The notes under the pieces were generated by a model. That model was not told the origin of the DNA, searched no databases, and saw only the letters and a list, made by a program, of their open reading frames with translations. Below, piece by piece: positions 153 through 36,750 of a DNA stretch of 64,000 bases. A program made the translations under genes and the position numbers. The stretch's first letter is position 1; each line of letters begins with the position of its first letter. This DNA is from a virus (lineage: Duplodnaviria; Heunggongvirae; Uroviricota; Caudoviricetes): IMG/VR virus record IMGVR_UViG_3300041409_000458. One strand, written 5' to 3'.

Positions 153-548
153 ATTTTCTTGTTTTATAGTGTTAACTAATAATCTTAAATCGTTATACAT
201 GGAAATTAATCCTGCACGGTCATCAAGTAATGCAGAGAAGAAAGGTTTTTTACTTTCCCAAGGTAATGGAATACCTCCATCATTAATTGCATCAAAAGGT
301 AAATCATTTTTCTCAAGAAATTCTGCAACATACCCTAAATCTTTGTAAGCTGTCCAGCATACAAGTTTACAATCAATTGATTTCAAATCCTTCAGTAGTT
401 GCTTTACCAGAGGATATGTGTGACCAGTCCCATGATAGTCATGAATGGTATCATCAAAATCATAAGCTACAGTAATACTACCATATCTTTTATACTCAGA
501 TAATAATCTATTAAAGTTTGCTGTTGGTTCTAAATATTTATCACTCAT
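123..548 (-). CDS. HAD-superfamily phosphatase, 5'(3')-deoxyribonucleotidase-like
   Basis: 141 aa; N-terminal motif AYDFDDTIHDY matches HAD motif I DxDx(T/V); size typical of phage deoxyribonucleotidases. Confidence 0.55.
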   Translation of the reverse strand: MSDKYLEPTANFNRLLSEYKRYGSITVAYDFDDTIHDYHGTGHTYPLVKQLLKDLKSIDCKLVCWTAYKDLGYVAEFLEKNDLPFDAINDGGIPLPWESKKPFFSALLDDRAGLISMYNDLRLLVNTIKQENESTKETSNN

Positions 549-1366
549 ATTACTTTATATTGTGTTACATAATCGGTTACCGGAATACTTCCTCCAATTC
601 CAAATTCGAAAGTATTCAAATCATGATGAGAATTCGTACAGTAAATATGGTCAATTATCTTATGAAGTTCTATAAATCCTTTAGAGAAAAGTCCATGACT
701 CACATAGAGATAAACTTTCCGAGCTTTGTGTTCTCTTAGAGCTTTCCCTAATAACTCAAAAGTGTAACCTCCATCACATAAATCATCTACAATCAGACAA
801 TCTTTTCCTTCTACATCGTGAGTGAACATTAAAGTAATTTTTCCGTCCTTATCACGATGTTTCATAGCTCCCATAACTGGGAGATTTAATTTCTCTCCAA
901 ATTCAAAAACTTTCTTATAAGCTCCTGCATCTGGAGATACTAGTAATATATCATCCAATCCCGGAGAAAGCTGTTCATCACACATTTTCTGACGTATATC
1001 TGCAACAGCTTTCACAACGAACTCAAGAGAGCTTCTTTTCTTCGAGTTATTAATCAAAGCCAAGGTAACGTCACTGTGAGGGTCAAAGACTTCAACTTTC
1101 CAGAAGTTACAGCTATTAATTACATCTGTAATAATTTTTAAGTCAAAAGATTGGTCTGGACCAAATCTTCTATCACTCCTCTGTCCAAACATACAAGGAA
1201 TAAATAAATCATAATTTTCATGCTTATTCTTTCCTATTTCTCCTATTGCTGCTAAGAACATTAAATCCTCATAAGAGTTTAGTCTTTGTCTTATTACATG
1301 ACTATTGTCACCTTGTACCCATTTGGCAGATATCTGACCGTCAGGAAATCGTATCCTTTCAAACAT
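545..1366 (-). CDS. ribose-phosphate pyrophosphokinase (PRPP synthetase)-like protein; possible ADP-ribose pyrophosphate synthetase analog
   Basis: 273 aa; PRPP-binding motif DCLIVDDLCDGGYTF (type I PRTase/Prs signature); start/stop overlap with neighbours. Confidence 0.65.
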   Translation of the reverse strand: MFERIRFPDGQISAKWVQGDNSHVIRQRLNSYEDLMFLAAIGEIGKNKHENYDLFIPCMFGQRSDRRFGPDQSFDLKIITDVINSCNFWKVEVFDPHSDVTLALINNSKKRSSLEFVVKAVADIRQKMCDEQLSPGLDDILLVSPDAGAYKKVFEFGEKLNLPVMGAMKHRDKDGKITLMFTHDVEGKDCLIVDDLCDGGYTFELLGKALREHKARKVYLYVSHGLFSKGFIELHKIIDHIYCTNSHHDLNTFEFGIGGSIPVTDYVTQYKVI

Positions 1367-6423: not shown

Positions 6424-6692
6424 AGTAAGTCTTTTAATGCTTGTTTAGGCTCAAAATGATTTAAAGTTTCTGAACTATTACTACGGATTAGATATTCTAT
6501 AGCTTTTGCTTCTATATCTTCTTCATCGAGAGATATTTGTTTATGAGTTAGTATGTTTTCGAGGACTTCTGTAGCTGTATCCAGTTTATCCCAGCTACTG
6601 TTTCTTAATCGTCTTTCGACAGAATCCAGATATCTTCTGTTATTCTCTATCTCCTTCTTAAGGCTCTCTAGAGGTATTAATAAATGTGTCAT
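6420..6692 (-). CDS. hypothetical protein
   Basis: 90 aa ORF. Confidence 0.3.
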   Translation of the reverse strand: MTHLLIPLESLKKEIENNRRYLDSVERRLRNSSWDKLDTATEVLENILTHKQISLDEEDIEAKAIEYLIRSNSSETLNHFEPKQALKDLL

Positions 6693-7465
6693 TTGCTGAA
6701 TTTTGCCTCAAGAGCTTGTATGAGTTTTGACATATTACCATCATAGAAGCCTGAGCAGTTTATACAATTGATTTCCAACACTTTATACTCATCTTCAGAT
6801 AGACAAATATCTAATACGAAGGCATCTGCAGGACAATATAAATCACAAATTTGCTGAGCAAATATCTGAGCTTCCTGATTATTGTCCATGTTCAGGTAAT
6901 TAACTCTTCTACCAATTTTGTATTGACTAATTGTCACAGGTTTACCGTCAACAATCCAACAGCGTATCTCCTGTTGAATTTCCTTTAGAGGAGCTATGAG
7001 AATCTGTGTTTCTGCTGTTAAAGTTTGTTTAAGTGAGCTATCCTCAATTTCCTGACTCCATTCATTCCAGCTTTCATGGGTAAATATTTGTCCACTGAAT
7101 TGCTTCGTATCCTTTGTAGGACGAGCAAAGAACAAATGCGGATAATCTTCTGGAACTTTATCTCCAAAATTGATGACTTTACCATCAGAGTTAAGCATGT
7201 GATTGCCATAATGAGCTCCATAAACAGTCAAATCATGGTTTTCATTATACATTGAGCCCGGATACCAGTCATATTTCTTAGCTACAACAGCTAAATTTGT
7301 GGACCCGAAAGCCCAAACGTTTTTACGGTCCGTTTTGAACTCAAGTTCATCAGTAAATGGACGGAAGGGTATAACTTCATAGTCCATATTATATCTCTTC
7401 AAATGCTCTATTAGAGTATTGAAGTGGTGCTCTCTAAAGAGATTCTCTTGAATGATGTAATACAT
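6689..7465 (-). CDS. ATP-grasp fold enzyme
   Basis: 258 aa; C-terminal EIRCWIVDGKPVTISQYK ... FVLDICLSEDEYKVLEINCINCSGFYDG typical of ATP-grasp ATP-binding/catalytic lobes. Confidence 0.55.
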   Translation of the reverse strand: MYYIIQENLFREHHFNTLIEHLKRYNMDYEVIPFRPFTDELEFKTDRKNVWAFGSTNLAVVAKKYDWYPGSMYNENHDLTVYGAHYGNHMLNSDGKVINFGDKVPEDYPHLFFARPTKDTKQFSGQIFTHESWNEWSQEIEDSSLKQTLTAETQILIAPLKEIQQEIRCWIVDGKPVTISQYKIGRRVNYLNMDNNQEAQIFAQQICDLYCPADAFVLDICLSEDEYKVLEINCINCSGFYDGNMSKLIQALEAKFSK

Positions 7466-10296: not shown

Positions 10297-10698
10297 TTAA
10301 GGAATATCTTCCGTTGATAATACTTTTTCTGCATAGTGATTATCAATATAGTTGTGAATTCTATATGTAATCTCCTCTCTATCATAAGAAACTCCTATTT
10401 CATTATGTGGATGGTCCTCAAACTCACAACTGTATTTTATGAAATAGTCAGAGATTGCTGTCCAAAACTCATGTATATAGAATTCTCTGAATTCACTTGG
10501 TATATCATTATATGATTTATCATGTAACTTGTTATTCTCTCTATACCATGATAATCCTGCTGCTGTTGGTCTCCATCTCTGAACTACCCTTCTAAAAGTC
10601 CATACCTTACAATTTCTATAGGTATGTTCCTCAACATCAAGAGGTTTTGCTGTACGAGATAAATATATCTCCGCAACATTTCTGAACTCTTCTGTCAT
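10297..10698 (-). CDS. hypothetical protein
   Basis: 133 aa ORF. Confidence 0.35.
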   Translation of the reverse strand: MTEEFRNVAEIYLSRTAKPLDVEEHTYRNCKVWTFRRVVQRWRPTAAGLSWYRENNKLHDKSYNDIPSEFREFYIHEFWTAISDYFIKYSCEFEDHPHNEIGVSYDREEITYRIHNYIDNHYAEKVLSTEDIP

Positions 10699-11045
10699 CT
10701 TCCATTAAAGTTAGGGGTTAAGTAATGACCTCCAGCATTAGAAGGACAGTTTAAATACTCACATACTTCTTCTCTAGTAAGTCTTTTGGCTTTATTCCAG
10801 TTATTTCGTTCCATTACGTCCATGCTTAAGCCATCTACTTTAGTCATATAAAACCCTTGCTCTTTTGAGTCGAATTTTATTATAGTACAAAAGTTGTCCA
10901 TTCTGGTAACAATAAGATTTGGAACTATATCTTTCGGTACCCATTTACGAGGAACTCTTTTGGTCACCTCAGCTGATGCTGGAATAAGTTTACCTATTAA
11001 AGGTAATACAAATAATCCAGCTAAAAAATTACGTCTATTCATATT
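10695..11045 (-). CDS. secreted protein with twin-arginine (Tat) signal peptide; start adjusted to internal Met
   Basis: Internal MNRRNFLAGLFVLPLIGKLIPASA has RRxFL Tat motif plus hydrophobic core and ASA-E cleavage site; using this Met removes the overlap with the upstream gene. Confidence 0.45.
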   Translation of the reverse strand, partial: NMNRRNFLAGLFVLPLIGKLIPASAEVTKRVPRKWVPKDIVPNLIVTRMDNFCTIIKFDSKEQGFYMTKVDGLSMDVMERNNWNKAKRLTREEVCEYLNCPSNAGGHYLTPNFNGR

Positions 11046-11052
11046 ATATAAT

Positions 11053-11679
11053 TTATAATAATAACAATCTATCAACTCCAAAAGCAAATCCGACTCCTCC
11101 TTTATATTCTCCTCCTCCACATACCTGTTTTTGAGCACCTAAGTTATTACAGCTTATTTCAAAGCCCTTTCCGTCCTTGTAGTAATCCAAACCTCTCTTT
11201 ACATCACTTCTAAGCTCAAATGAGCCCGGAATGCTCTTATAAAGGCTTACAGCTAAATCCTTCAGATATCCAAGGTAATCTTTTGTAGGGTTAAGTATTT
11301 CAACCCCTAATTGAGTAAATTGACGATATCTTCCAGATTGAGGTCGTTCTCCTCTGAAACATTCCTGAATGTAGAATAATTTGACGTCCTTTTTATGTTT
11401 GAAAGTTGTAGACGCAAGTTTTTGGACTATTGCCGTATATTCTGGAGCCAAACATATATCTCTTCCTCCTCTGTCTTGAAAATTGAACATGAGATTGTTG
11501 TTTTCCTCTCCTACTTTTCCTTTAAAGGTCTCCTGAAGCTGAATTATTGGAATCGACATTTCTGTGAATCCTTCCGTAATGAGTCTTTGAACTGATTGTT
11601 CAATAAAGTCTCGTTTTCTGTTGCCAAAGAGGATTCGGGTACCTTTATAGCAGGTTTCTTTGATTTCAATGTCTTTCAT
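11053..11679 (-). CDS. class II aminoacyl-tRNA synthetase-like core (HisRS/HisZ-like), lacks anticodon-binding domain
   Basis: YKGTRILFGNRKRDFIE ... FQDRGGRDICLAPEYTA (HisRS N-terminal pattern); motif 2 FRGERPQSGRYRQFTQLGVEI; motif 3 GGGEYKGGVGFAFGVDRL; only about 210 aa. Confidence 0.6.
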   Translation of the reverse strand: MKDIEIKETCYKGTRILFGNRKRDFIEQSVQRLITEGFTEMSIPIIQLQETFKGKVGEENNNLMFNFQDRGGRDICLAPEYTAIVQKLASTTFKHKKDVKLFYIQECFRGERPQSGRYRQFTQLGVEILNPTKDYLGYLKDLAVSLYKSIPGSFELRSDVKRGLDYYKDGKGFEISCNNLGAQKQVCGGGEYKGGVGFAFGVDRLLLL

Positions 11680-11681
11680 AG

Positions 11682-12068
11682 TTATTTTCTTTCTTCTGGT
11701 TGTCCACAATAAATGCAGGAATCTTGCTCTGTATCATCTTCATGATAGTCACATTTGCCATCTGGTGAGTCTCCATTGCAATCCCAACGGTCATCAATTT
11801 CTTCACGTAATCTTGTACCTGAGTAACCCTCAAGCTCAGGAACTTCTTTTAGAGGATATTTACCAAGATAATGAGGTTTAAAACTGTCTCTAGAGTGAAG
11901 TAGGATTGGGTCAGTATATAGAGAAGCAATATAATCAATACTTTGACTCCATTTTTCATTGCTTTTAGGGATATCCATCAATTTATGGATTATCACCCTT
12001 TCTCTGGTAAAGACATTACGTATCATTCTCACTCTATCCTGAAAGCTATAGGGATTTCTTTTATCCAT
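11682..12068 (-). CDS. hypothetical protein
   Basis: 128 aa ORF; Cys/His-rich C-terminus (CDYHEDD...CIYCGQPE). Confidence 0.35.
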   Translation of the reverse strand: MDKRNPYSFQDRVRMIRNVFTRERVIIHKLMDIPKSNEKWSQSIDYIASLYTDPILLHSRDSFKPHYLGKYPLKEVPELEGYSGTRLREEIDDRWDCNGDSPDGKCDYHEDDTEQDSCIYCGQPEERK

Positions 12069-12120: not shown

Positions 12121-12594
12121 TTAGAAGCTAAAAGTAAGCCCCGATGTTGCAAAGGGAACACTTCCTGATGTGGTTGAACCTGTAAAGTAAAACCCACCAA
12201 GTCCAGCTGATAGCTGAAGGTTCTTGGCAATGTTATAACCAACTGAAGCTCCATACTCTGTCATGAAGTTCCTGCTGGTCCAAACAATTCCACCTCCCAG
12301 TGAGCCATTCACTGAAAAATTGCCACTTTCCCAAAGGGTAGGCGTAACTCTTACTGTGGTGTAACAATTCCCTTTTGACAGAGAAGTTGAGCCAACTGCT
12401 ACACCAAATTTCACTTTTTTCACCTTAATACCTAATTCCCCGGAAGCTAATGATTTGTTGTCAAAAGTGCCAGATGTTAATAAAGGTGAAACTGAAGCAG
12501 TTACGTACAATTGTGGTACGTCTAACTTCTTTGTTTGTGCCATTGCTGTCAATGACAAGCAAATAAGCGTTAATCCTACTAAAACCTTTTTCAT
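12121..12594 (-). CDS. outer-membrane beta-barrel protein (OmpA/OmpW-like small porin) with signal peptide
   Basis: 157 aa; signal peptide MKKVLVGLTLICLSLTAMAQ; alternating amphipathic beta-strands rich in G/S/T; C-terminal aromatic ...GLTFSF typical of OMP beta-barrels. Confidence 0.6.
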   Translation of the reverse strand: MKKVLVGLTLICLSLTAMAQTKKLDVPQLYVTASVSPLLTSGTFDNKSLASGELGIKVKKVKFGVAVGSTSLSKGNCYTTVRVTPTLWESGNFSVNGSLGGGIVWTSRNFMTEYGASVGYNIAKNLQLSAGLGGFYFTGSTTSGSVPFATSGLTFSF

Positions 12595-13047
12595 AAATAT
12601 TTATTTGTTTAAAGATTAGCACCCTCCTGTTAACTAAACCTAGTAGGATTCGCACCTAAATGGGTTGGGGTCACATAGTTATCCGAGCCTACCTCCACCA
12701 CAGCCACCCATTTCTGAGTGCGAATGATAACTACTTGCTGAGAACTCATTTGTGTTGTCTGTACTGTTGAATCTACTCCAAAGGAGCATACTATTCATTC
12801 ATAGCGTCTGTTCAGTCCTATCTTTCTCAAGGATAGCAACACATTTCGACTTTCATCGAATATTCTTATTTAGAGTCGTGTCAATGTTTTCCGACTATAG
12901 CTTTTAGTATTATTGTATTAAGAGGCTCGTTCTAATCCCAAAGGATTTAATCTCTATTACTCATACTCAGGTCAACTGTTACATGTGTCAAGAATTACTT
13001 CGGAATCACGTCATAACATATCTATCTATTGCTCCTGTTTAGCAAAT

Positions 13048-17444: not shown

Positions 17445-17747
17445 TTAGTTTTTATCTTTAAGTAATAGTGGTATTTTACGTACCAACTTTTGGGTTAATG
17501 ATGATGGCTCAATAGCCACTGCTGTAATCTGATTGCCAATATCTGGCTCTCTAAATACAGTGTAACACAGTTGATTTCGTTCACAATTTGCAATCAATAA
17601 ACGAAGCTGGGCTTCATTTTGAACTTCCAACTGAACTAAAGTGTTACTTTCATTAAACCAAGGACTCGCTCGTCCCGGATGCTCAAAGATAAAATTAATT
17701 GCTGCATGACAGCTTTGTACAGACTTATACCCGTCTGCAAGGTCCAT
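17445..17747 (-). CDS. peptidyl-tRNA hydrolase, PTH2 family
   Basis: 100 aa; GYKSVQSCHAAINF (PTH2 GK..AQCSHAA motif) and TVFREPDIGNQITAVAIEPSSL (DAG.T.I..GS.TVLAIGP-like). Confidence 0.6.
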   Translation of the reverse strand: MDLADGYKSVQSCHAAINFIFEHPGRASPWFNESNTLVQLEVQNEAQLRLLIANCERNQLCYTVFREPDIGNQITAVAIEPSSLTQKLVRKIPLLLKDKN

Positions 17748-18130: not shown

Positions 18131-18183
18131 AATTCTTTCTGTTTGTTCATTTTTGAATATCTAGCTCATATTTAATCTTTTAG

Positions 18184-18255
18184 TGCAGATAAAGAGAATC
18201 GAACTCTTGACAAAAGCTTTTAGAGAGCCATGTTCTACCCCTGAACTATATCTGC
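18184..18255 (-). tRNA. suppressor-like tRNA with anticodon CUA (amber-reading)
   Basis: Hand-folded: acceptor GCAGATA/TATCTGC (7 bp), D-arm GTTC-AGGGGTA-GAAC, anticodon loop CTCTAAA (C32 U33 CUA A37 A38), T-arm AAGAG-TTCGATT-CTCTT; anticodon stem has only 3 WC + 1 GU pairs. Confidence 0.55.
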
Positions 18256-32909: not shown

Positions 32910-33422
32910 ATGAAAACAATAGAATGTATATGTAATAACTGTAATAAGTCTTTTACAAAACCACTAAAGGAACATACGAGGTCCCAAAAAGTAGGGAGGT
33001 CTTCATTTTGCTCCTTGGCTTGTGCTAGTAAATTCAACCCAAATAGATTTGGAGGGAAAGTAGGTAATAGAATTCCACCTAGAAATCCCACTAATCCATT
33101 CAAGTATTATCTAAGAAATATAATGAGGAGACATCATAAATGGGATGTCACTCTTGAGTACCTAAAGCAAATCTGGGATGAGCAAGAAGGAATATGTCCT
33201 TATACTAAAATTAAACTTGTTCTAAATACACATAGTCATAGAAATACTGACATACGATTTACTGCCTCTTTAGACAGAATTAATTCTTCAATAGGTTATA
33301 TTAAAGGAAATGTTCAATTTGTCTCAATGGCAATAAATTATATGAAATCTTCTATGTCTCATAGTGATACTACAGAATTCTTACAAATTATAACAAAGAA
33401 CTTGAATCCACTACTTTCATAA
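32910..33422 (+). CDS. HNH_3-type homing endonuclease, free-standing on the opposite strand
   Basis: 170 aa; N-terminal Cys cluster CICNNC...CSLAC; C-terminal CPYTKIKLVL ... ASLDRINSSIGYIKGNVQFVSMAIN matches the HNH_3 motif; lone plus-strand gene in minus-strand block. Confidence 0.55.
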   Translation: MKTIECICNNCNKSFTKPLKEHTRSQKVGRSSFCSLACASKFNPNRFGGKVGNRIPPRNPTNPFKYYLRNIMRRHHKWDVTLEYLKQIWDEQEGICPYTKIKLVLNTHSHRNTDIRFTASLDRINSSIGYIKGNVQFVSMAINYMKSSMSHSDTTEFLQIITKNLNPLLS

Positions 33423-33682
33423 TGGCGTGGACTATATCTTCACCCGTTCTGGGTGTTGGATGCTCTGGGCTCACCGTAGTGTCCCTAGTCTCTGAACCTT
33501 CCTCAATCTTCCCTGAGGCTCGGCTGCTGATTGCCTACGTCTTTACGTTTAGGGTTCCAGCAATTCTTCCAATTTTTTCATCTGTATTCCTACAAAGCGA
33601 GTCCGATTTTATTCAACTCGGGTCCAAACAGGTGTCTTTCAAAAAATCAATCCTTACGAACTTTGGGCGATTACCATTTATT

Positions 33683-36663: not shown

Positions 36664-36681
36664 TTTAGTTGATTTATTTTG

Positions 36682-36750
36682 TAGAGGCACCGAGATTCGA
36701 ACTCAGATTTCTCCCTCGCAGGAGCGTCCTAGCCATTAAACTATACCTCT
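36682..36750 (-). ncRNA. tRNA-like element lacking an anticodon loop (anticodon arm replaced by a GCGA tetraloop hairpin)
   Basis: Acceptor AGAGGTA/TGCCTCT (6 WC + 1 GU), D-arm GTTT-AATGGCTA-GGAC, T-arm CTGAG-TTCGAAT-CTCGG; middle arm CTCCT-GCGA-GGGAG is a 5 bp stem (4 WC + 1 GU) with GNRA tetraloop. Confidence 0.4.

What the first reader, a model, noticed from the sequence alone, without database searches (positions are those of the whole stretch)
11053..11679. Minimal HisRS-like class II synthetase core lacking anticodon-binding domain
The protein has HisRS-type N-terminal motifs (KGTR..F, DRGGR.I.LAPE.TA), class II motif 2 (FRGERPQSGRYRQFTQ) and motif 3 (GGGEYKGGVGFAFGVDRL), but in only about 210 residues. 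It has no insertion domain and no C-terminal anticodon-binding domain, so it resembles HisZ-like regulators or aminoacyl carrier ligases. In a genome with many tRNAs, a suppressor tRNA and PTH2, it could charge or sequester a specific (possibly phage) tRNA or act on non-tRNA substrates.
Basis: partly seen in the sequence, partly recalled or inferred. Interest (0 to 1): 0.55.

Follow-up and report, generated by a model that had tools for sequence, protein, structure and literature searches.

The report
Phage mini histidyl-tRNA synthetase, core only
A tailed phage encodes a 208-residue histidyl-tRNA synthetase reduced to its catalytic core, one member of a large phage-borne family that most likely charges histidine tRNA by reading only the acceptor end; if active it would be smaller than any natural tRNA synthetase I know of.

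Summary
Window 11053-11679 (minus strand) encodes a 208-aa protein that is clearly HisRS-derived (TIGR00442 4.8e-39; best PDB match Thermus/E. coli HisRS; AF2 model pLDDT 92, TM 0.85 to E. coli HisRS). It lacks the ~95-aa insertion domain, an 11-aa loop before motif 3 and the whole anticodon-binding domain.

It is not a one-off or a remnant. More than 2000 relatives of 200-225 aa exist, nearly all on phage contigs of up to 675 kb. One branch separates all sampled mini forms from all sampled full-length HisRS.

The family keeps every His/ATP catalytic residue. It also keeps most of the catalytic-domain residues that contact G-1, C73 and the CCA end in the HisRS-tRNAHis crystal structure. This includes the cross-subunit DRGGR pocket, so a dimer is likely.

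No protein partner gene is conserved nearby. The gene sits repeatedly in tRNA arrays and tRNA-repair islands, sometimes touching tRNA-His genes, and in four loci it lies next to a similarly shortened TrpRS.

Best reading (about 0.6): a stand-alone, anticodon-blind HisRS. The HisZ-like and carrier-protein-ligase readings are not supported. No paper describing this architecture was found; databases simply label it "histidyl-tRNA synthetase". Activity is untested.

The parts
11053..11679 (-). Complete mini-HisRS coding sequence (208 aa plus TAA stop)
   Evidence: ORF and translation. Pfam, NCBIfam and PDB matches. AF2 model with pLDDT 92.4 and pTM 0.88. Foldseek best match is E. coli HisRS at TMq 0.85-0.86.
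11635..11646 (-). N-terminal KGTR motif. K12 corresponds to Thermus HisRS Arg7, which contacts the acceptor-stem backbone.
   Evidence: Alignment to 4rdx/1adj. Role of Arg7, and its frequent replacement by Lys, from PMC4357726. K in 113 of 115 close relatives.
11536..11574 (-). Class II motif 1 region (EGFTEMSIPIIQL), a dimer-interface element
   Evidence: Alignment to HisRS structures. P44 is nearly invariant in the family.
11461..11475 (-). DRGGR, identical to Thermus 70-DRGGR-74, which forms the G-1 pocket from the opposite subunit of the dimer
   Evidence: Alignment. Function from PMC4357726. D69 and R73 are kept in 115/115 close relatives and G71 in 113/115; position 72 varies (D/N/G/E).
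11431..11451 (-). Histidine-binding loop LAPEYTA (E80 = E. coli E83, T82 = E. coli T85)
   Evidence: Mapping to E. coli HisRS 1kmm. E in 38/40 and T in 35/40 divergent mini forms. In relative P0121 an intein is inserted exactly here.
11299..11358 (-). Class II motif 2 with its loop (FRGERPQSGRYRQFTQLGVE). It carries the ATP arginine R109, the acceptor-end readers E111, R112, Q114, R117 and R119, and the histidine contacts Q123 and E127.
   Evidence: Mapping. Conservation. tRNA contacts of Thermus E114, R115, Q117, R120 and R122.
11221..11292 (-). Short helix-and-linker (NPTKDYLGYLKDLAVSLYKSIPGS) standing where full-length HisRS has its ~95-aa insertion domain
   Evidence: Query 136/137 joins Thermus residues 141 and 237. 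The model shows helix 136-146 followed by strand 154-158.
11179..11196 (-). HisRS-specific motif RGLDYY (R162 = catalytic R259 of E. coli HisRS; Y166/Y167 = Y263/Y264)
   Evidence: Mapping. R in 33/40 and Y in 31-33/40 divergent mini forms; G163 and Y167 in 115/115 close relatives.
11068..11118 (-). HisRS motif GGGxY joined directly to class II motif 3 (GVGFAFGVDR; R204 = E. coli R311). The usual 11-aa loop between them is deleted.
   Evidence: Alignment gaps against Thermus and E. coli HisRS. G189, G190, Y192 and R204 are at least 90% conserved.

Best explanation
The gene encodes a stand-alone, catalytically active histidyl-tRNA synthetase reduced to the class II catalytic core. The proposed mechanism has four steps:
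1. It binds histidine and ATP and makes histidyl-adenylate with the standard HisRS active site. The residues are shown to be conserved; the activity is inferred.
2. It works as a homodimer, because the G-1 pocket element DRGGR acts across subunits in HisRS (inferred).
3. It selects tRNAHis only through the extra G-1:C73 pair and the CCA end. It uses the motif 2 loop and DRGGR, with no contact to the anticodon (inferred from residue conservation and from published work that HisRS charges acceptor-stem helices).
4. It transfers histidine to A76.

For the phage it would be a compact, anticodon-independent way to keep histidine tRNA charged during infection. That pool includes the phages' own tRNA-His genes, some of them oddly shaped. 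It belongs to a tRNA supply and repair tool-kit. Why His in particular (and, in some of these phages, Trp) is not explained.
For: Identity as HisRS:
- Sequence matches.
- High-confidence model (pLDDT 92.4) that superposes best on E. coli HisRS (TMq 0.85-0.86).

Active site:
- The equivalents of E. coli E83, T85, R113, E115, R121, Q127, E131, R259, Y263/Y264, Y288 and R311 are all present in the query.
- Each is kept in roughly 75-98% of 40 divergent mini forms, against about 87-100% in 63 full-length HisRS.

tRNA-contact residues of the Thermus HisRS-tRNAHis structure (PMC4357726):
- Thermus R7, D70'RGGR74', E114, R115, Q117, R120, R122, G260, Y264 and A278 correspond to query K12, DRGGR 69-73, E111, R112, Q114, R117, R119, G163, Y167 and A182.
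- D69, R73, E111, Q114, R117, R119, G163 and Y167 are kept in 115/115 close relatives. R112 is mostly Lys (92/115), and position 72 varies.
- The same paper reports that the lost insertion-domain contacts (R197, R204, K209) are either not conserved or tolerate mutation. It also describes the anticodon as a weak determinant and mini- and microhelices as fair substrates.
- Designed HisRS urzymes containing only motifs 1 and 2 are reported to acylate tRNAHis (PMC11602164).

Selection:
- More than 2000 relatives were found; all 120 listed are 203-293 aa and 66-76% identical (apart from the query's own entry), sitting in otherwise unrelated flanks.
- About 46 clusters at 50% identity score below 1e-30.
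- An NJ tree puts all 41 mini forms on one side of a single branch and all 63 full-length HisRS on the other.
- One member carries a LAGLIDADG intein inside the histidine-binding loop.

Context:
- tRNAs lie within 6 kb in 11 of 26 distinct loci.
- tRNA-His lies 8-12 nt from the gene in L006 and L030, 276 nt away in Sinorhizobium phage Phosso, and within 1-2 kb in L012/13, L020 and L029.
- 10/10 of these tRNA-His have G-1 and 9/10 have C73, against 0/97 other tRNAs with both.
- Neighbours include a CCA-adding enzyme, a Pnkp-like kinase, RNA-ligase-like genes and PTH2.
- A similarly shortened TrpRS lies next to it in four loci.
Against: - No activity has been measured for any member.
- The window itself has no tRNA-His among its 7 tRNAs, although the window is only 64 kb of a contig of at least 170 kb.
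- The association with tRNA-His specifically is not statistically strong. His is present in 6 of the 11 tRNA-bearing loci (7 of 12 once L033 is added), but Arg and Ile are about as frequent. His is the nearest tRNA in only 3 of 11.
- Thermus Glu64, one of the two most mutation-sensitive tRNA-contact residues in PMC4357726, is Leu/Met/Gln here, and its loop is 3 residues shorter.
- The motif 3 helix is cut to about one turn, and the acceptor-clamping insertion domain is gone, so affinity for tRNA may be poor without a helper.
- The dimer is inferred, not modelled.
- The score is below the curated hisS cut-off (134.5 vs 286.75 bits).
Confidence: 0.6

Rival explanations
1. It is the catalytic subunit of a two-part synthetase. 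tRNA binding would be supplied in trans by another protein. Candidates are an unrecognised phage-encoded anticodon-binding or RNA-binding protein, or a heterodimer with the host's full-length HisRS that borrows its anticodon-binding domain.
For: The clamp-like insertion domain and the anticodon-binding domain are both missing. The cross-subunit DRGGR element shows that the enzyme depends on a dimer partner. Split or partner-dependent class II synthetases are known; GlyRS alpha/beta is discussed in PMC11602164.
Against: No protein gene is conserved next to it in 25 loci. Longer family members carry no additional recognisable domain. The family is 66-76% identical across very different phage genomes, including the one with a named host (Sinorhizobium phage Phosso). 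It is only about 30-45% identical to bacterial HisRS over the stretches that align. That pattern is hard to reconcile with a co-evolved interface to each host's HisRS.
Confidence: 0.15
2. It is an amino-acid ligase that makes His-AMP but passes histidine to a non-tRNA acceptor such as a carrier protein, small molecule, nucleotide or protein. This would resemble other truncated synthetase paralogues (aa:carrier-protein ligases, AsnA, PoxA/EpmA, YadB).
For: Many truncated synthetase paralogues without anticodon-binding domains have non-tRNA acceptors (review PMC9437257). A PP-binding carrier-protein gene lies about 0.8 kb downstream in one 354-kb contig. In the window the gene sits 2 nt after an NMN-adenylyltransferase-like ORF, in a genome region with NADAR and PRPP-synthase-like genes.
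Against: The carrier-protein and NAD-gene neighbours are each limited to one or a few of the loci examined, and no protein neighbour is conserved. Residues whose known role is to hold G-1, C73, C74 and A76 of tRNAHis are conserved as strictly as the catalytic ones. That would not be expected if the acceptor were not a tRNA acceptor end. The recurrent context is tRNA genes and tRNA repair.
Confidence: 0.12
3. It is a non-catalytic histidine- or nucleotide-binding protein. It could be a HisZ-like allosteric regulator of a phosphoribosyltransferase, a histidine sensor, or a sponge that binds a histidine-nucleotide conjugate or uncharged tRNAHis.
For: HisZ is the known precedent for a HisRS paralogue without an anticodon-binding domain, and hisZ models do match (TIGR00443 7.5e-22). 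The window encodes a PRPP-synthase-like protein and other NAD/ADP-ribose genes.
Against: HisZ lacks adenylation activity (PMC9437257), while this family keeps both class II arginines, the HisRS-specific catalytic arginine and the ATP and His contacts. hisS scores well above hisZ (134.5 vs 77.8 bits). HisZ ranks only 46th in the fold search, behind HisRS and PylRS. No HisG family was reported in any Pfam-annotated neighbourhood. A pure binder would not need the full catalytic set under this degree of conservation.
Confidence: 0.08
4. It is a decaying fragment of a captured host hisS gene with no function.
For: It is about half the length of HisRS and falls below the curated hisS cut-off. One related locus (L025) carries a broken copy of 66 + 68 aa.
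Against: There are thousands of intact copies of the same length. Identity is 66-76% across otherwise unrelated flanks. The deletion boundaries are precise and shared, and one branch separates all mini forms from all full-length HisRS. The predicted fold is compact and confident.
Confidence: 0.02

Closest known systems
Bacterial histidyl-tRNA synthetase (class IIa HisRS; E. coli 1KMM/1KMN, Thermus 1ADJ/4RDX)
   Same: Class II motifs 1-3, the two HisRS-specific motifs (RGLDYY, GGGxY), all His/ATP catalytic residues, the motif 2 loop and the cross-subunit DRGGR pocket that read G-1:C73. The core fold superposes at TMq 0.85.
   Different: It has 208 aa instead of about 420. It lacks the insertion domain that clamps the acceptor stem, the 11-aa loop before motif 3, most of the motif 3 helix and the whole anticodon-binding domain. 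The Glu64 equivalent is not kept. It falls below the curated hisS score cut-off.
Engineered HisRS fragments: the catalytic-domain fragment without the C-terminal domain (recalled from memory as Augustine and Francklyn 1997, not checked here) and the Carter-lab HisRS urzymes
   Same: Catalytic core without the anticodon-binding domain. Urzymes with motifs 1 and 2 alone are reported to activate histidine and acylate tRNAHis (PMC11602164). That makes an active 208-aa core plausible.
   Different: Those are laboratory constructs with low activity. This is a natural, strongly conserved, widespread gene that keeps motif 3 and both HisRS-specific motifs.
HisZ, the regulatory subunit of ATP phosphoribosyltransferase
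   Same: A HisRS paralogue without the C-terminal anticodon-binding domain. hisZ profiles give significant matches.
   Different: HisZ does not adenylate and works with HisG (PMC9437257). The HisZ models are about 280-430 positions long. Here the catalytic set is intact, no HisG was seen nearby, and the hisS score is much higher.
N-terminally truncated pyrrolysyl-tRNA synthetases (M. alvus and ISO4-G1 PylRS, about 273 aa)
   Same: Small class II enzymes. From general knowledge, not tested here, they charge their tRNA without reading the anticodon. They are the second-best structural class (TMq 0.70-0.74) and align end to end with the query by sequence (8.5e-7).
   Different: The amino-acid pocket and tRNA identity rules differ. 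The query has HisRS-specific motifs and is a further ~65 aa shorter.
Full-length aminoacyl-tRNA synthetases of huge phages (Al-Shayeb et al. 2020, PMC7162821)
   Same: Phage-encoded synthetases found with large tRNA sets. They are proposed to charge phage tRNA variants. Two of the genomes deposited with that work carry this mini-HisRS (LR756502, LR745206).
   Different: That work describes the phage synthetases as related to host enzymes. Its passages on tRNA synthetases do not describe core-only forms, and the word 'histidyl' does not occur in its main text.

Membership tests
Histidyl-tRNA synthetase (class IIa HisRS) | Class II motifs 1, 2 and 3 with the invariant motif 2 and motif 3 arginines | tested here: met
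   P44 (motif 1), R109 (motif 2) and R204 (motif 3) are present and at least 90% conserved in the family.
Histidyl-tRNA synthetase (class IIa HisRS) | HisRS-specific histidine-pocket motifs (RGLDYY and GGGxY) and the catalytic arginine (E. coli R259) | tested here: met
   RGLDYY at 162-167 and GGGEY at 188-192. R162 is kept in 33/40 divergent members and Y192 in 34/40.
Histidyl-tRNA synthetase (class IIa HisRS) | Catalytic-domain residues that recognise G-1:C73 and the CCA end (motif 2 loop and the cross-subunit DRGGR) | tested here: met
   All are present in the query except the Glu64 equivalent. E111, Q114, R117, R119, D69 and R73 are kept in 115/115 close relatives.
Histidyl-tRNA synthetase (class IIa HisRS) | HisRS insertion domain between motif 2 and the RGLDYY motif | tested here: not met
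   Query 136/137 bridges Thermus residues 141 and 237. Only a 24-aa helix-and-linker remains.
Histidyl-tRNA synthetase (class IIa HisRS) | C-terminal class IIa anticodon-binding domain | tested here: not met
   The protein ends 4 residues after the motif 3 arginine at a TAA stop. No anticodon-binding domain was detected by Pfam. The downstream ORF is a signal-peptide protein with no Pfam match.
Histidyl-tRNA synthetase (class IIa HisRS) | Score above curated family cut-offs | tested here: inconclusive
   Pfam tRNA-synt_His scores 58.4 bits against a cut-off of 25 (met). NCBIfam hisS TIGR00442 scores 134.5 against 286.75 (not met, as expected for half the length).
Histidyl-tRNA synthetase (class IIa HisRS) | Histidine activation and histidylation of tRNAHis | not testable with these tools
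   Needs ATP-PPi exchange and aminoacylation assays.
HisZ (ATP-PRT regulatory subunit) | Loss of adenylation chemistry (degenerate catalytic residues) | tested here: not met
   The catalytic set is fully retained. HisZ is described as lacking adenylation activity in PMC9437257.
HisZ (ATP-PRT regulatory subunit) | Partnership with a short HisG encoded in the same genome or operon | tested here: not met
   No HisG family appears in the Pfam-annotated neighbourhoods of six contigs. No protein neighbour is conserved in 25 loci. Whole phage genomes were not scanned.
HisZ (ATP-PRT regulatory subunit) | Score above the curated hisZ cut-off | tested here: not met
   TIGR00443 scores 77.8 bits against a cut-off of 271.65, and lower than hisS.
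Amino acid:carrier-protein ligases (synthetase-like) | Adjacent carrier protein (PP-binding) and related biosynthetic genes | tested here: not met
   A PP-binding gene lies near the homologue in only one contig. It is absent from the window and the other loci.
Pyrrolysyl-tRNA synthetase catalytic domain | Pyrrolysine-type amino-acid pocket and a PylS family score | tested here: not met
   PylS_Cterm TIGR02367 scores 21.4 bits against a cut-off of 178. The resemblance is one of size and fold only.

The most novel reading that the evidence does not exclude
The mini-HisRS, together with the similarly shortened TrpRS found beside it in several phages, is a natural 'operational-code' synthetase. 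It would be a ~208-aa dimeric enzyme that charges tRNA purely from acceptor-stem signals, and would then be smaller than any natural aminoacyl-tRNA synthetase I know of. Being blind to the rest of the tRNA, it would let large phages use non-standard tRNA-His genes that the host enzyme handles poorly. Examples are the recurrent 86-90-nt tRNA-His(GUG) with a long variable arm, and variants altered to escape host tRNA-cutting defences. This would amount to a phage-private charging channel.
Probability: 0.3. Interest if true: 0.8.

Novelty: new variant of a known kind. Interest (0 to 1): 0.62.

Why it matters
[quoted passage not shown] So far that idea has been tested mostly with engineered fragments (urzymes, minihelices). 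A natural, abundant, strongly conserved 208-aa HisRS core would give the field a ready-made, evolution-optimised minimal enzyme to assay and crystallise.

It would also extend what is known about how large phages take over translation. Besides full-length synthetases they would carry miniaturised, anticodon-independent ones, embedded in tRNA supply and repair islands.

A very small, anticodon-blind synthetase with a simple identity rule (G-1:C73) is also an attractive starting point for orthogonal pairs in genetic-code engineering.

If it turns out not to charge tRNA, a widespread phage enzyme that makes His-AMP for another purpose would be a new activity worth knowing.

Tried and rejected
- **Window suppressor tRNA as substrate.** I tested whether the amber-suppressor tRNA (18183-18255) could be the substrate of an anticodon-blind HisRS. 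It has U at -1 and A73, so this is rejected.
- **Conserved partner gene.** All-against-all comparison of ORFs in 25 loci found only the mini-HisRS itself shared, plus the mini-TrpRS in three loci.
- **PHROGs.** No match for the protein or either neighbour.
- **Split gene.** I checked whether the upstream 128-aa NMNAT-like ORF or the downstream ORF could supply missing HisRS domains. They cannot. The upstream ORF matches the middle part (profile positions 57-157 of 354) of an NMN-adenylyltransferase/Nudix model, and the downstream ORF is a signal-peptide protein.
- **Non-His tRNAs with His identity.** The one apparent case, L030 tRNA-Ser, was a misplaced tRNA start; it is a normal G73 tRNA-Ser.
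- **Cellular homologues.** Only 2 hits in 185,579 species genomes, both on MAG contigs. The one examined is a run of small co-directional unannotated ORFs typical of phage.
- **Literature.** Searches for a description of a truncated or mini phage HisRS found nothing relevant.
- **AFDB fold search.** The afdb50 library was not available.
- **tRNA-His enrichment.** Enrichment of tRNA-His among neighbouring tRNAs is only suggestive. His is the nearest tRNA in 3 of 11 loci, and Arg and Ile are equally common in the arrays.
Full report
**What is there.** The finding's coordinates hold a single ORF on the minus strand. It runs from ATG at 11679 to TAA at 11053-11055 and encodes 208 aa. It starts 2 nt after the stop of the upstream gene, and its 3' end is overlapped by the longest ORF reading of the downstream gene.

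The protein matches:
- Pfam tRNA-synt_His at 9.4e-16 and the class II core model tRNA-synt_2b at 8.5e-8.
- NCBIfam hisS at 4.8e-39, in two separated stretches.
- Solved HisRS structures at up to 2.4e-22.

The alignments show exactly what is missing. Query 11-136 matches Thermus HisRS 8-141 and query 137-207 matches 237-316. So about 95 aa, the HisRS insertion domain, are excised. An 11-aa loop between the GGGxY motif and motif 3 is also absent. The chain stops 4 residues after the motif 3 arginine, so the linker and the anticodon-binding domain are gone. The stop is TAA, so the window's amber suppressor cannot extend the protein.

An AlphaFold2 model built on 42 family sequences is confident (pLDDT 92.4, pTM 0.88). 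The two less confident stretches correspond to loops that PMC4357726 describes as disordered or mobile in HisRS: residues 51-60, and 161-170 containing the RGLDYY loop. Foldseek against the PDB ranks E. coli HisRS first (TMq 0.85-0.86). The small anticodon-blind PylRS enzymes of about 273 aa come next (TMq 0.70-0.74). HisZ appears only at rank 46.

**It is a family, not an accident.** The large protein collection holds 2023 relatives. All 120 listed are 203-293 aa long and, apart from the query's own entry, 66-76% identical to the query. In the 50%-identity representative library, 46 clusters score better than 1e-30 and are nearly all of mini size. Full-length HisRS of about 420 aa only begin to appear around 1e-30.

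A neighbour-joining tree on 198 shared core columns places all 41 sampled mini forms on one side of a single branch and all 63 full-length HisRS on the other. That fits one old origin followed by diversification.

The carriers are phages:
- Viral contigs of up to 675 kb.
- The 642-kb and 634-kb megaphage genomes LR756502 and LR745206, and the cultured 469-kb Sinorhizobium phage Phosso.
- The window itself, which encodes a large terminase, a portal, a major head protein and a DNA polymerase.

A scan of one genome for each of 185,579 bacterial and archaeal species found two copies, both on MAG contigs. The one I examined is a run of small co-directional unannotated genes typical of phage.

One member carries a LAGLIDADG intein inserted between the Tyr and Thr of LAPEY|TA, the histidine-binding loop. 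From general knowledge, inteins typically sit in the most constrained sites of functional enzymes.

**Active site and tRNA-contact residues.** I mapped the query onto E. coli HisRS. The equivalents of E83, T85, R113, E115, R121, Q127, E131, R259, Y263/Y264, Y288 and R311 are all present. Across 40 divergent mini forms each is conserved in roughly 75-98% of sequences, against about 87-100% in 63 full-length HisRS.

More telling are the residues that the Thermus HisRS-tRNAHis crystal structure shows holding the acceptor end (PMC4357726). They map as follows:
- R7 corresponds to K12.
- The cross-subunit 70'-DRGGR-74' element, which makes room for G-1, corresponds to an identical DRGGR at 69-73.
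- E114, R115, Q117, R120 and R122 correspond to E111, R112, Q114, R117 and R119.
- G260, Y264 and A278 correspond to G163, Y167 and A182.

In 115 close relatives D69, R73, E111, Q114, R117, R119, G163 and Y167 are invariant. R112 is mostly Lys, and the second Gly of DRGGR varies, as it also does in full-length HisRS. The one clear loss is the Glu64 equivalent, which is Leu/Met/Gln in a loop 3 residues shorter.

The same paper reports that the insertion-domain contacts (R197, R204, K209) are either not conserved or tolerate mutation. It describes the anticodon as a weak determinant and mini- and microhelices as fair substrates. Designed HisRS urzymes with only motifs 1 and 2 are reported to acylate tRNAHis (PMC11602164). 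The parts this protein has lost are therefore those HisRS can best do without, and the parts it keeps are those that read G-1:C73. Because DRGGR acts from the opposite subunit, its conservation implies a dimer.

**Genomic context.** Comparing all ORFs in 25 loci, the mini-HisRS is the only gene shared. The flanks are otherwise unrelated. That argues against a dedicated protein partner such as a carrier protein, HisG or a separate RNA-binding subunit.

What does recur is tRNA biology:
- tRNAs lie within 6 kb in 11 of 26 distinct loci.
- tRNA-His(GUG) genes lie 12 nt upstream (L006), 8 nt downstream (L030/31) and 276 nt upstream (Phosso). They lie within 1-2 kb in L012/13, L020 and L029.
- In three further contigs a CCA-adding enzyme lies 2.5-4 kb upstream. 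In two of them a Pnkp-like kinase, a Nudix and a NADAR gene lie downstream.
- In megaphage LR756502 the gene is flanked by two ORFs carrying the KxDG ligase motif and lies 4 kb from a tRNA-His.
- In the window, PTH2 and the tRNA cluster begin 6 kb away on the same strand.

All ten tRNA-His genes in these loci have an encoded G at -1 and nine have C73. None of 97 other tRNAs has both. The association with tRNA-His specifically is suggestive rather than significant: Arg and Ile tRNAs are as common in these arrays, and His is the nearest tRNA in only 3 of 11 loci.

A further pointer is a 238-247-aa TrpRS. It has HIGH and KMSKS motifs and matches only positions 6-224 of the 328-position trpS model. 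It sits next to the mini-HisRS in L006, L013 and L017, and 4 kb away in LR756502. These phages therefore carry more than one miniaturised synthetase.

**Interpretation.** The best-supported explanation, at confidence about 0.6, is a stand-alone, dimeric, anticodon-blind HisRS. It would make His-AMP and transfer histidine to tRNAHis recognised through G-1:C73 alone. It would be part of a phage tool-kit for keeping tRNAs supplied, repaired and charged.
- Shown: homology, the deleted parts, residue conservation, phage restriction and context.
- Inferred: catalysis, dimerisation, tRNA specificity and the benefit to the phage.

The rivals are:
- A core that needs a trans-acting tRNA-binding partner or the host HisRS (0.15).
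- A His-adenylating ligase with a non-tRNA acceptor (0.12).
- A non-catalytic HisZ-like binder or sponge (0.08).
- A decaying fragment (0.02).

**Comparison with known families.** The protein works like HisRS and descends from it. It fails two architectural features of the family (insertion domain, anticodon-binding domain) and the curated hisS score cut-off. I therefore describe it as a new architectural variant rather than an ordinary member.

It is not HisZ: the catalytic set is kept, the hisZ score is lower, and no HisG was seen. It is not an amino-acid:carrier-protein ligase, because there is no conserved carrier neighbour.

Phage-encoded synthetases are known (PMC7162821), and pipelines already label these proteins 'histidyl-tRNA synthetase'. 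I found no paper that describes the core-only architecture or its distribution. The viral structure library also contains other, unrelated 185-222-aa class-II-core-only phage proteins, including one from E. coli phage phAPEC8. Minimal class II cores in phages may therefore be a wider, unstudied phenomenon.

**Verdict.** I rate interest at 0.62: it is a natural minimal synthetase that makes the 'catalytic core plus operational code' idea directly testable, but its activity has not been demonstrated.

Noticed in passing
L006 6627-7358; L013 7266-8009; L017 4305-5021; L033 (LR756502) 12258-12977; also LR756501 204437-205147: A shortened TrpRS of 238-247 aa with HIGH and KMSKS motifs. It matches only positions 6-224 of the 328-position trpS model, which suggests that most of the C-terminal part of TrpRS is missing. 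It sits beside or within 4 kb of the mini-HisRS in four loci and also occurs in the 735-kb phage. It is not present in the window.
   Followed up: partly
L006 5820-5909; L029 4188-4276; L030 6713-6798: Recurrent 86-90-nt tRNA-His(GUG) genes with a long, base-paired variable arm, G-1 and C73. Each is paired with a normal 73-75-nt tRNA-His close to the mini-HisRS. A type-II-shaped tRNA-His is unusual. Other tRNAs in the same arrays (Lys, Asn, Trp, Glu, Ile) also come in 80-89-nt versions.
   Followed up: partly
window 11682-12068 (-): The 128-aa ORF immediately upstream matches only positions 57-157 of a 354-position NMN adenylyltransferase/Nudix model (7.8e-5). It lacks the N-terminal HxGH nucleotide-binding motif, and no such motif exists anywhere in the window. 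It ends in a Cys-rich tail (C..C....CxxC). It is either a truncated enzyme or a distinct small protein.
   Followed up: partly
window 33408-33624 (-): A full-length group I intron match (Rfam RF00028, 75.2 bits, 2.8e-17). I did not examine which gene it interrupts.
   Followed up: no
window 18183-18255 (-) and 17445-17747 (-): An amber-suppressor tRNA (anticodon CUA, U-1, A73) lies about 440 nt from an archaeo-eukaryotic-type peptidyl-tRNA hydrolase (PTH2) gene. Whether the phage reads TAG as sense was not examined. The mini-HisRS gene ends in TAA.
   Followed up: partly
window 36681-36750 (-); L012 6716-6790: tRNA-like genes with irregular anticodon loops: ARAGORN reports a 2-nt 'cg' anticodon in the window and a 4-nt 'taaa' anticodon in L012. 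The window copy passes the Rfam tRNA threshold (44.3 bits).
   Followed up: no
window 10695-11042 (-): The gene just downstream of the mini-HisRS begins MNRRNFLAGLFVLPLIG, which resembles a twin-arginine export signal. That is unexpected among phage early-region genes. It has no Pfam or PHROG match.
   Followed up: no
protein P0121 (564 aa, metagenomic relative): A mini-HisRS interrupted by a LAGLIDADG intein (Intein_splicing 2e-13) inserted between Y and T of the histidine-binding LAPEY|TA loop.
   Followed up: yes
L025 5992-6499: A relative on a 140-kb viral contig is split into 66-aa and 68-aa pieces. It may be a pseudogene, a sequencing frameshift or an unrecognised insertion.
   Followed up: no
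BFVD entries A0A292GIB7, A0A6J5M2P2, A0A141HRQ2, A0A2I7SAH4, K7QJG2 (E. coli phage phAPEC8): Other phage proteins of 185-222 aa have a class II synthetase core fold (TM 0.63-0.71 to the model) but only 11-18% identity. These are further uncharacterised core-only synthetase-like proteins in phages.
   Followed up: no
window 545-1366, 2038-2508, 6689-7465 (-); L029, L030: NAD/ADP-ribose genes recur in the wider neighbourhood of the mini-HisRS in several phages. They include a PRPP-synthase-like gene, NADAR, Nudix and an NMN transporter; an R2K ATP-grasp gene lies in the same region. Any functional link to the synthetase is untested.
   Followed up: no
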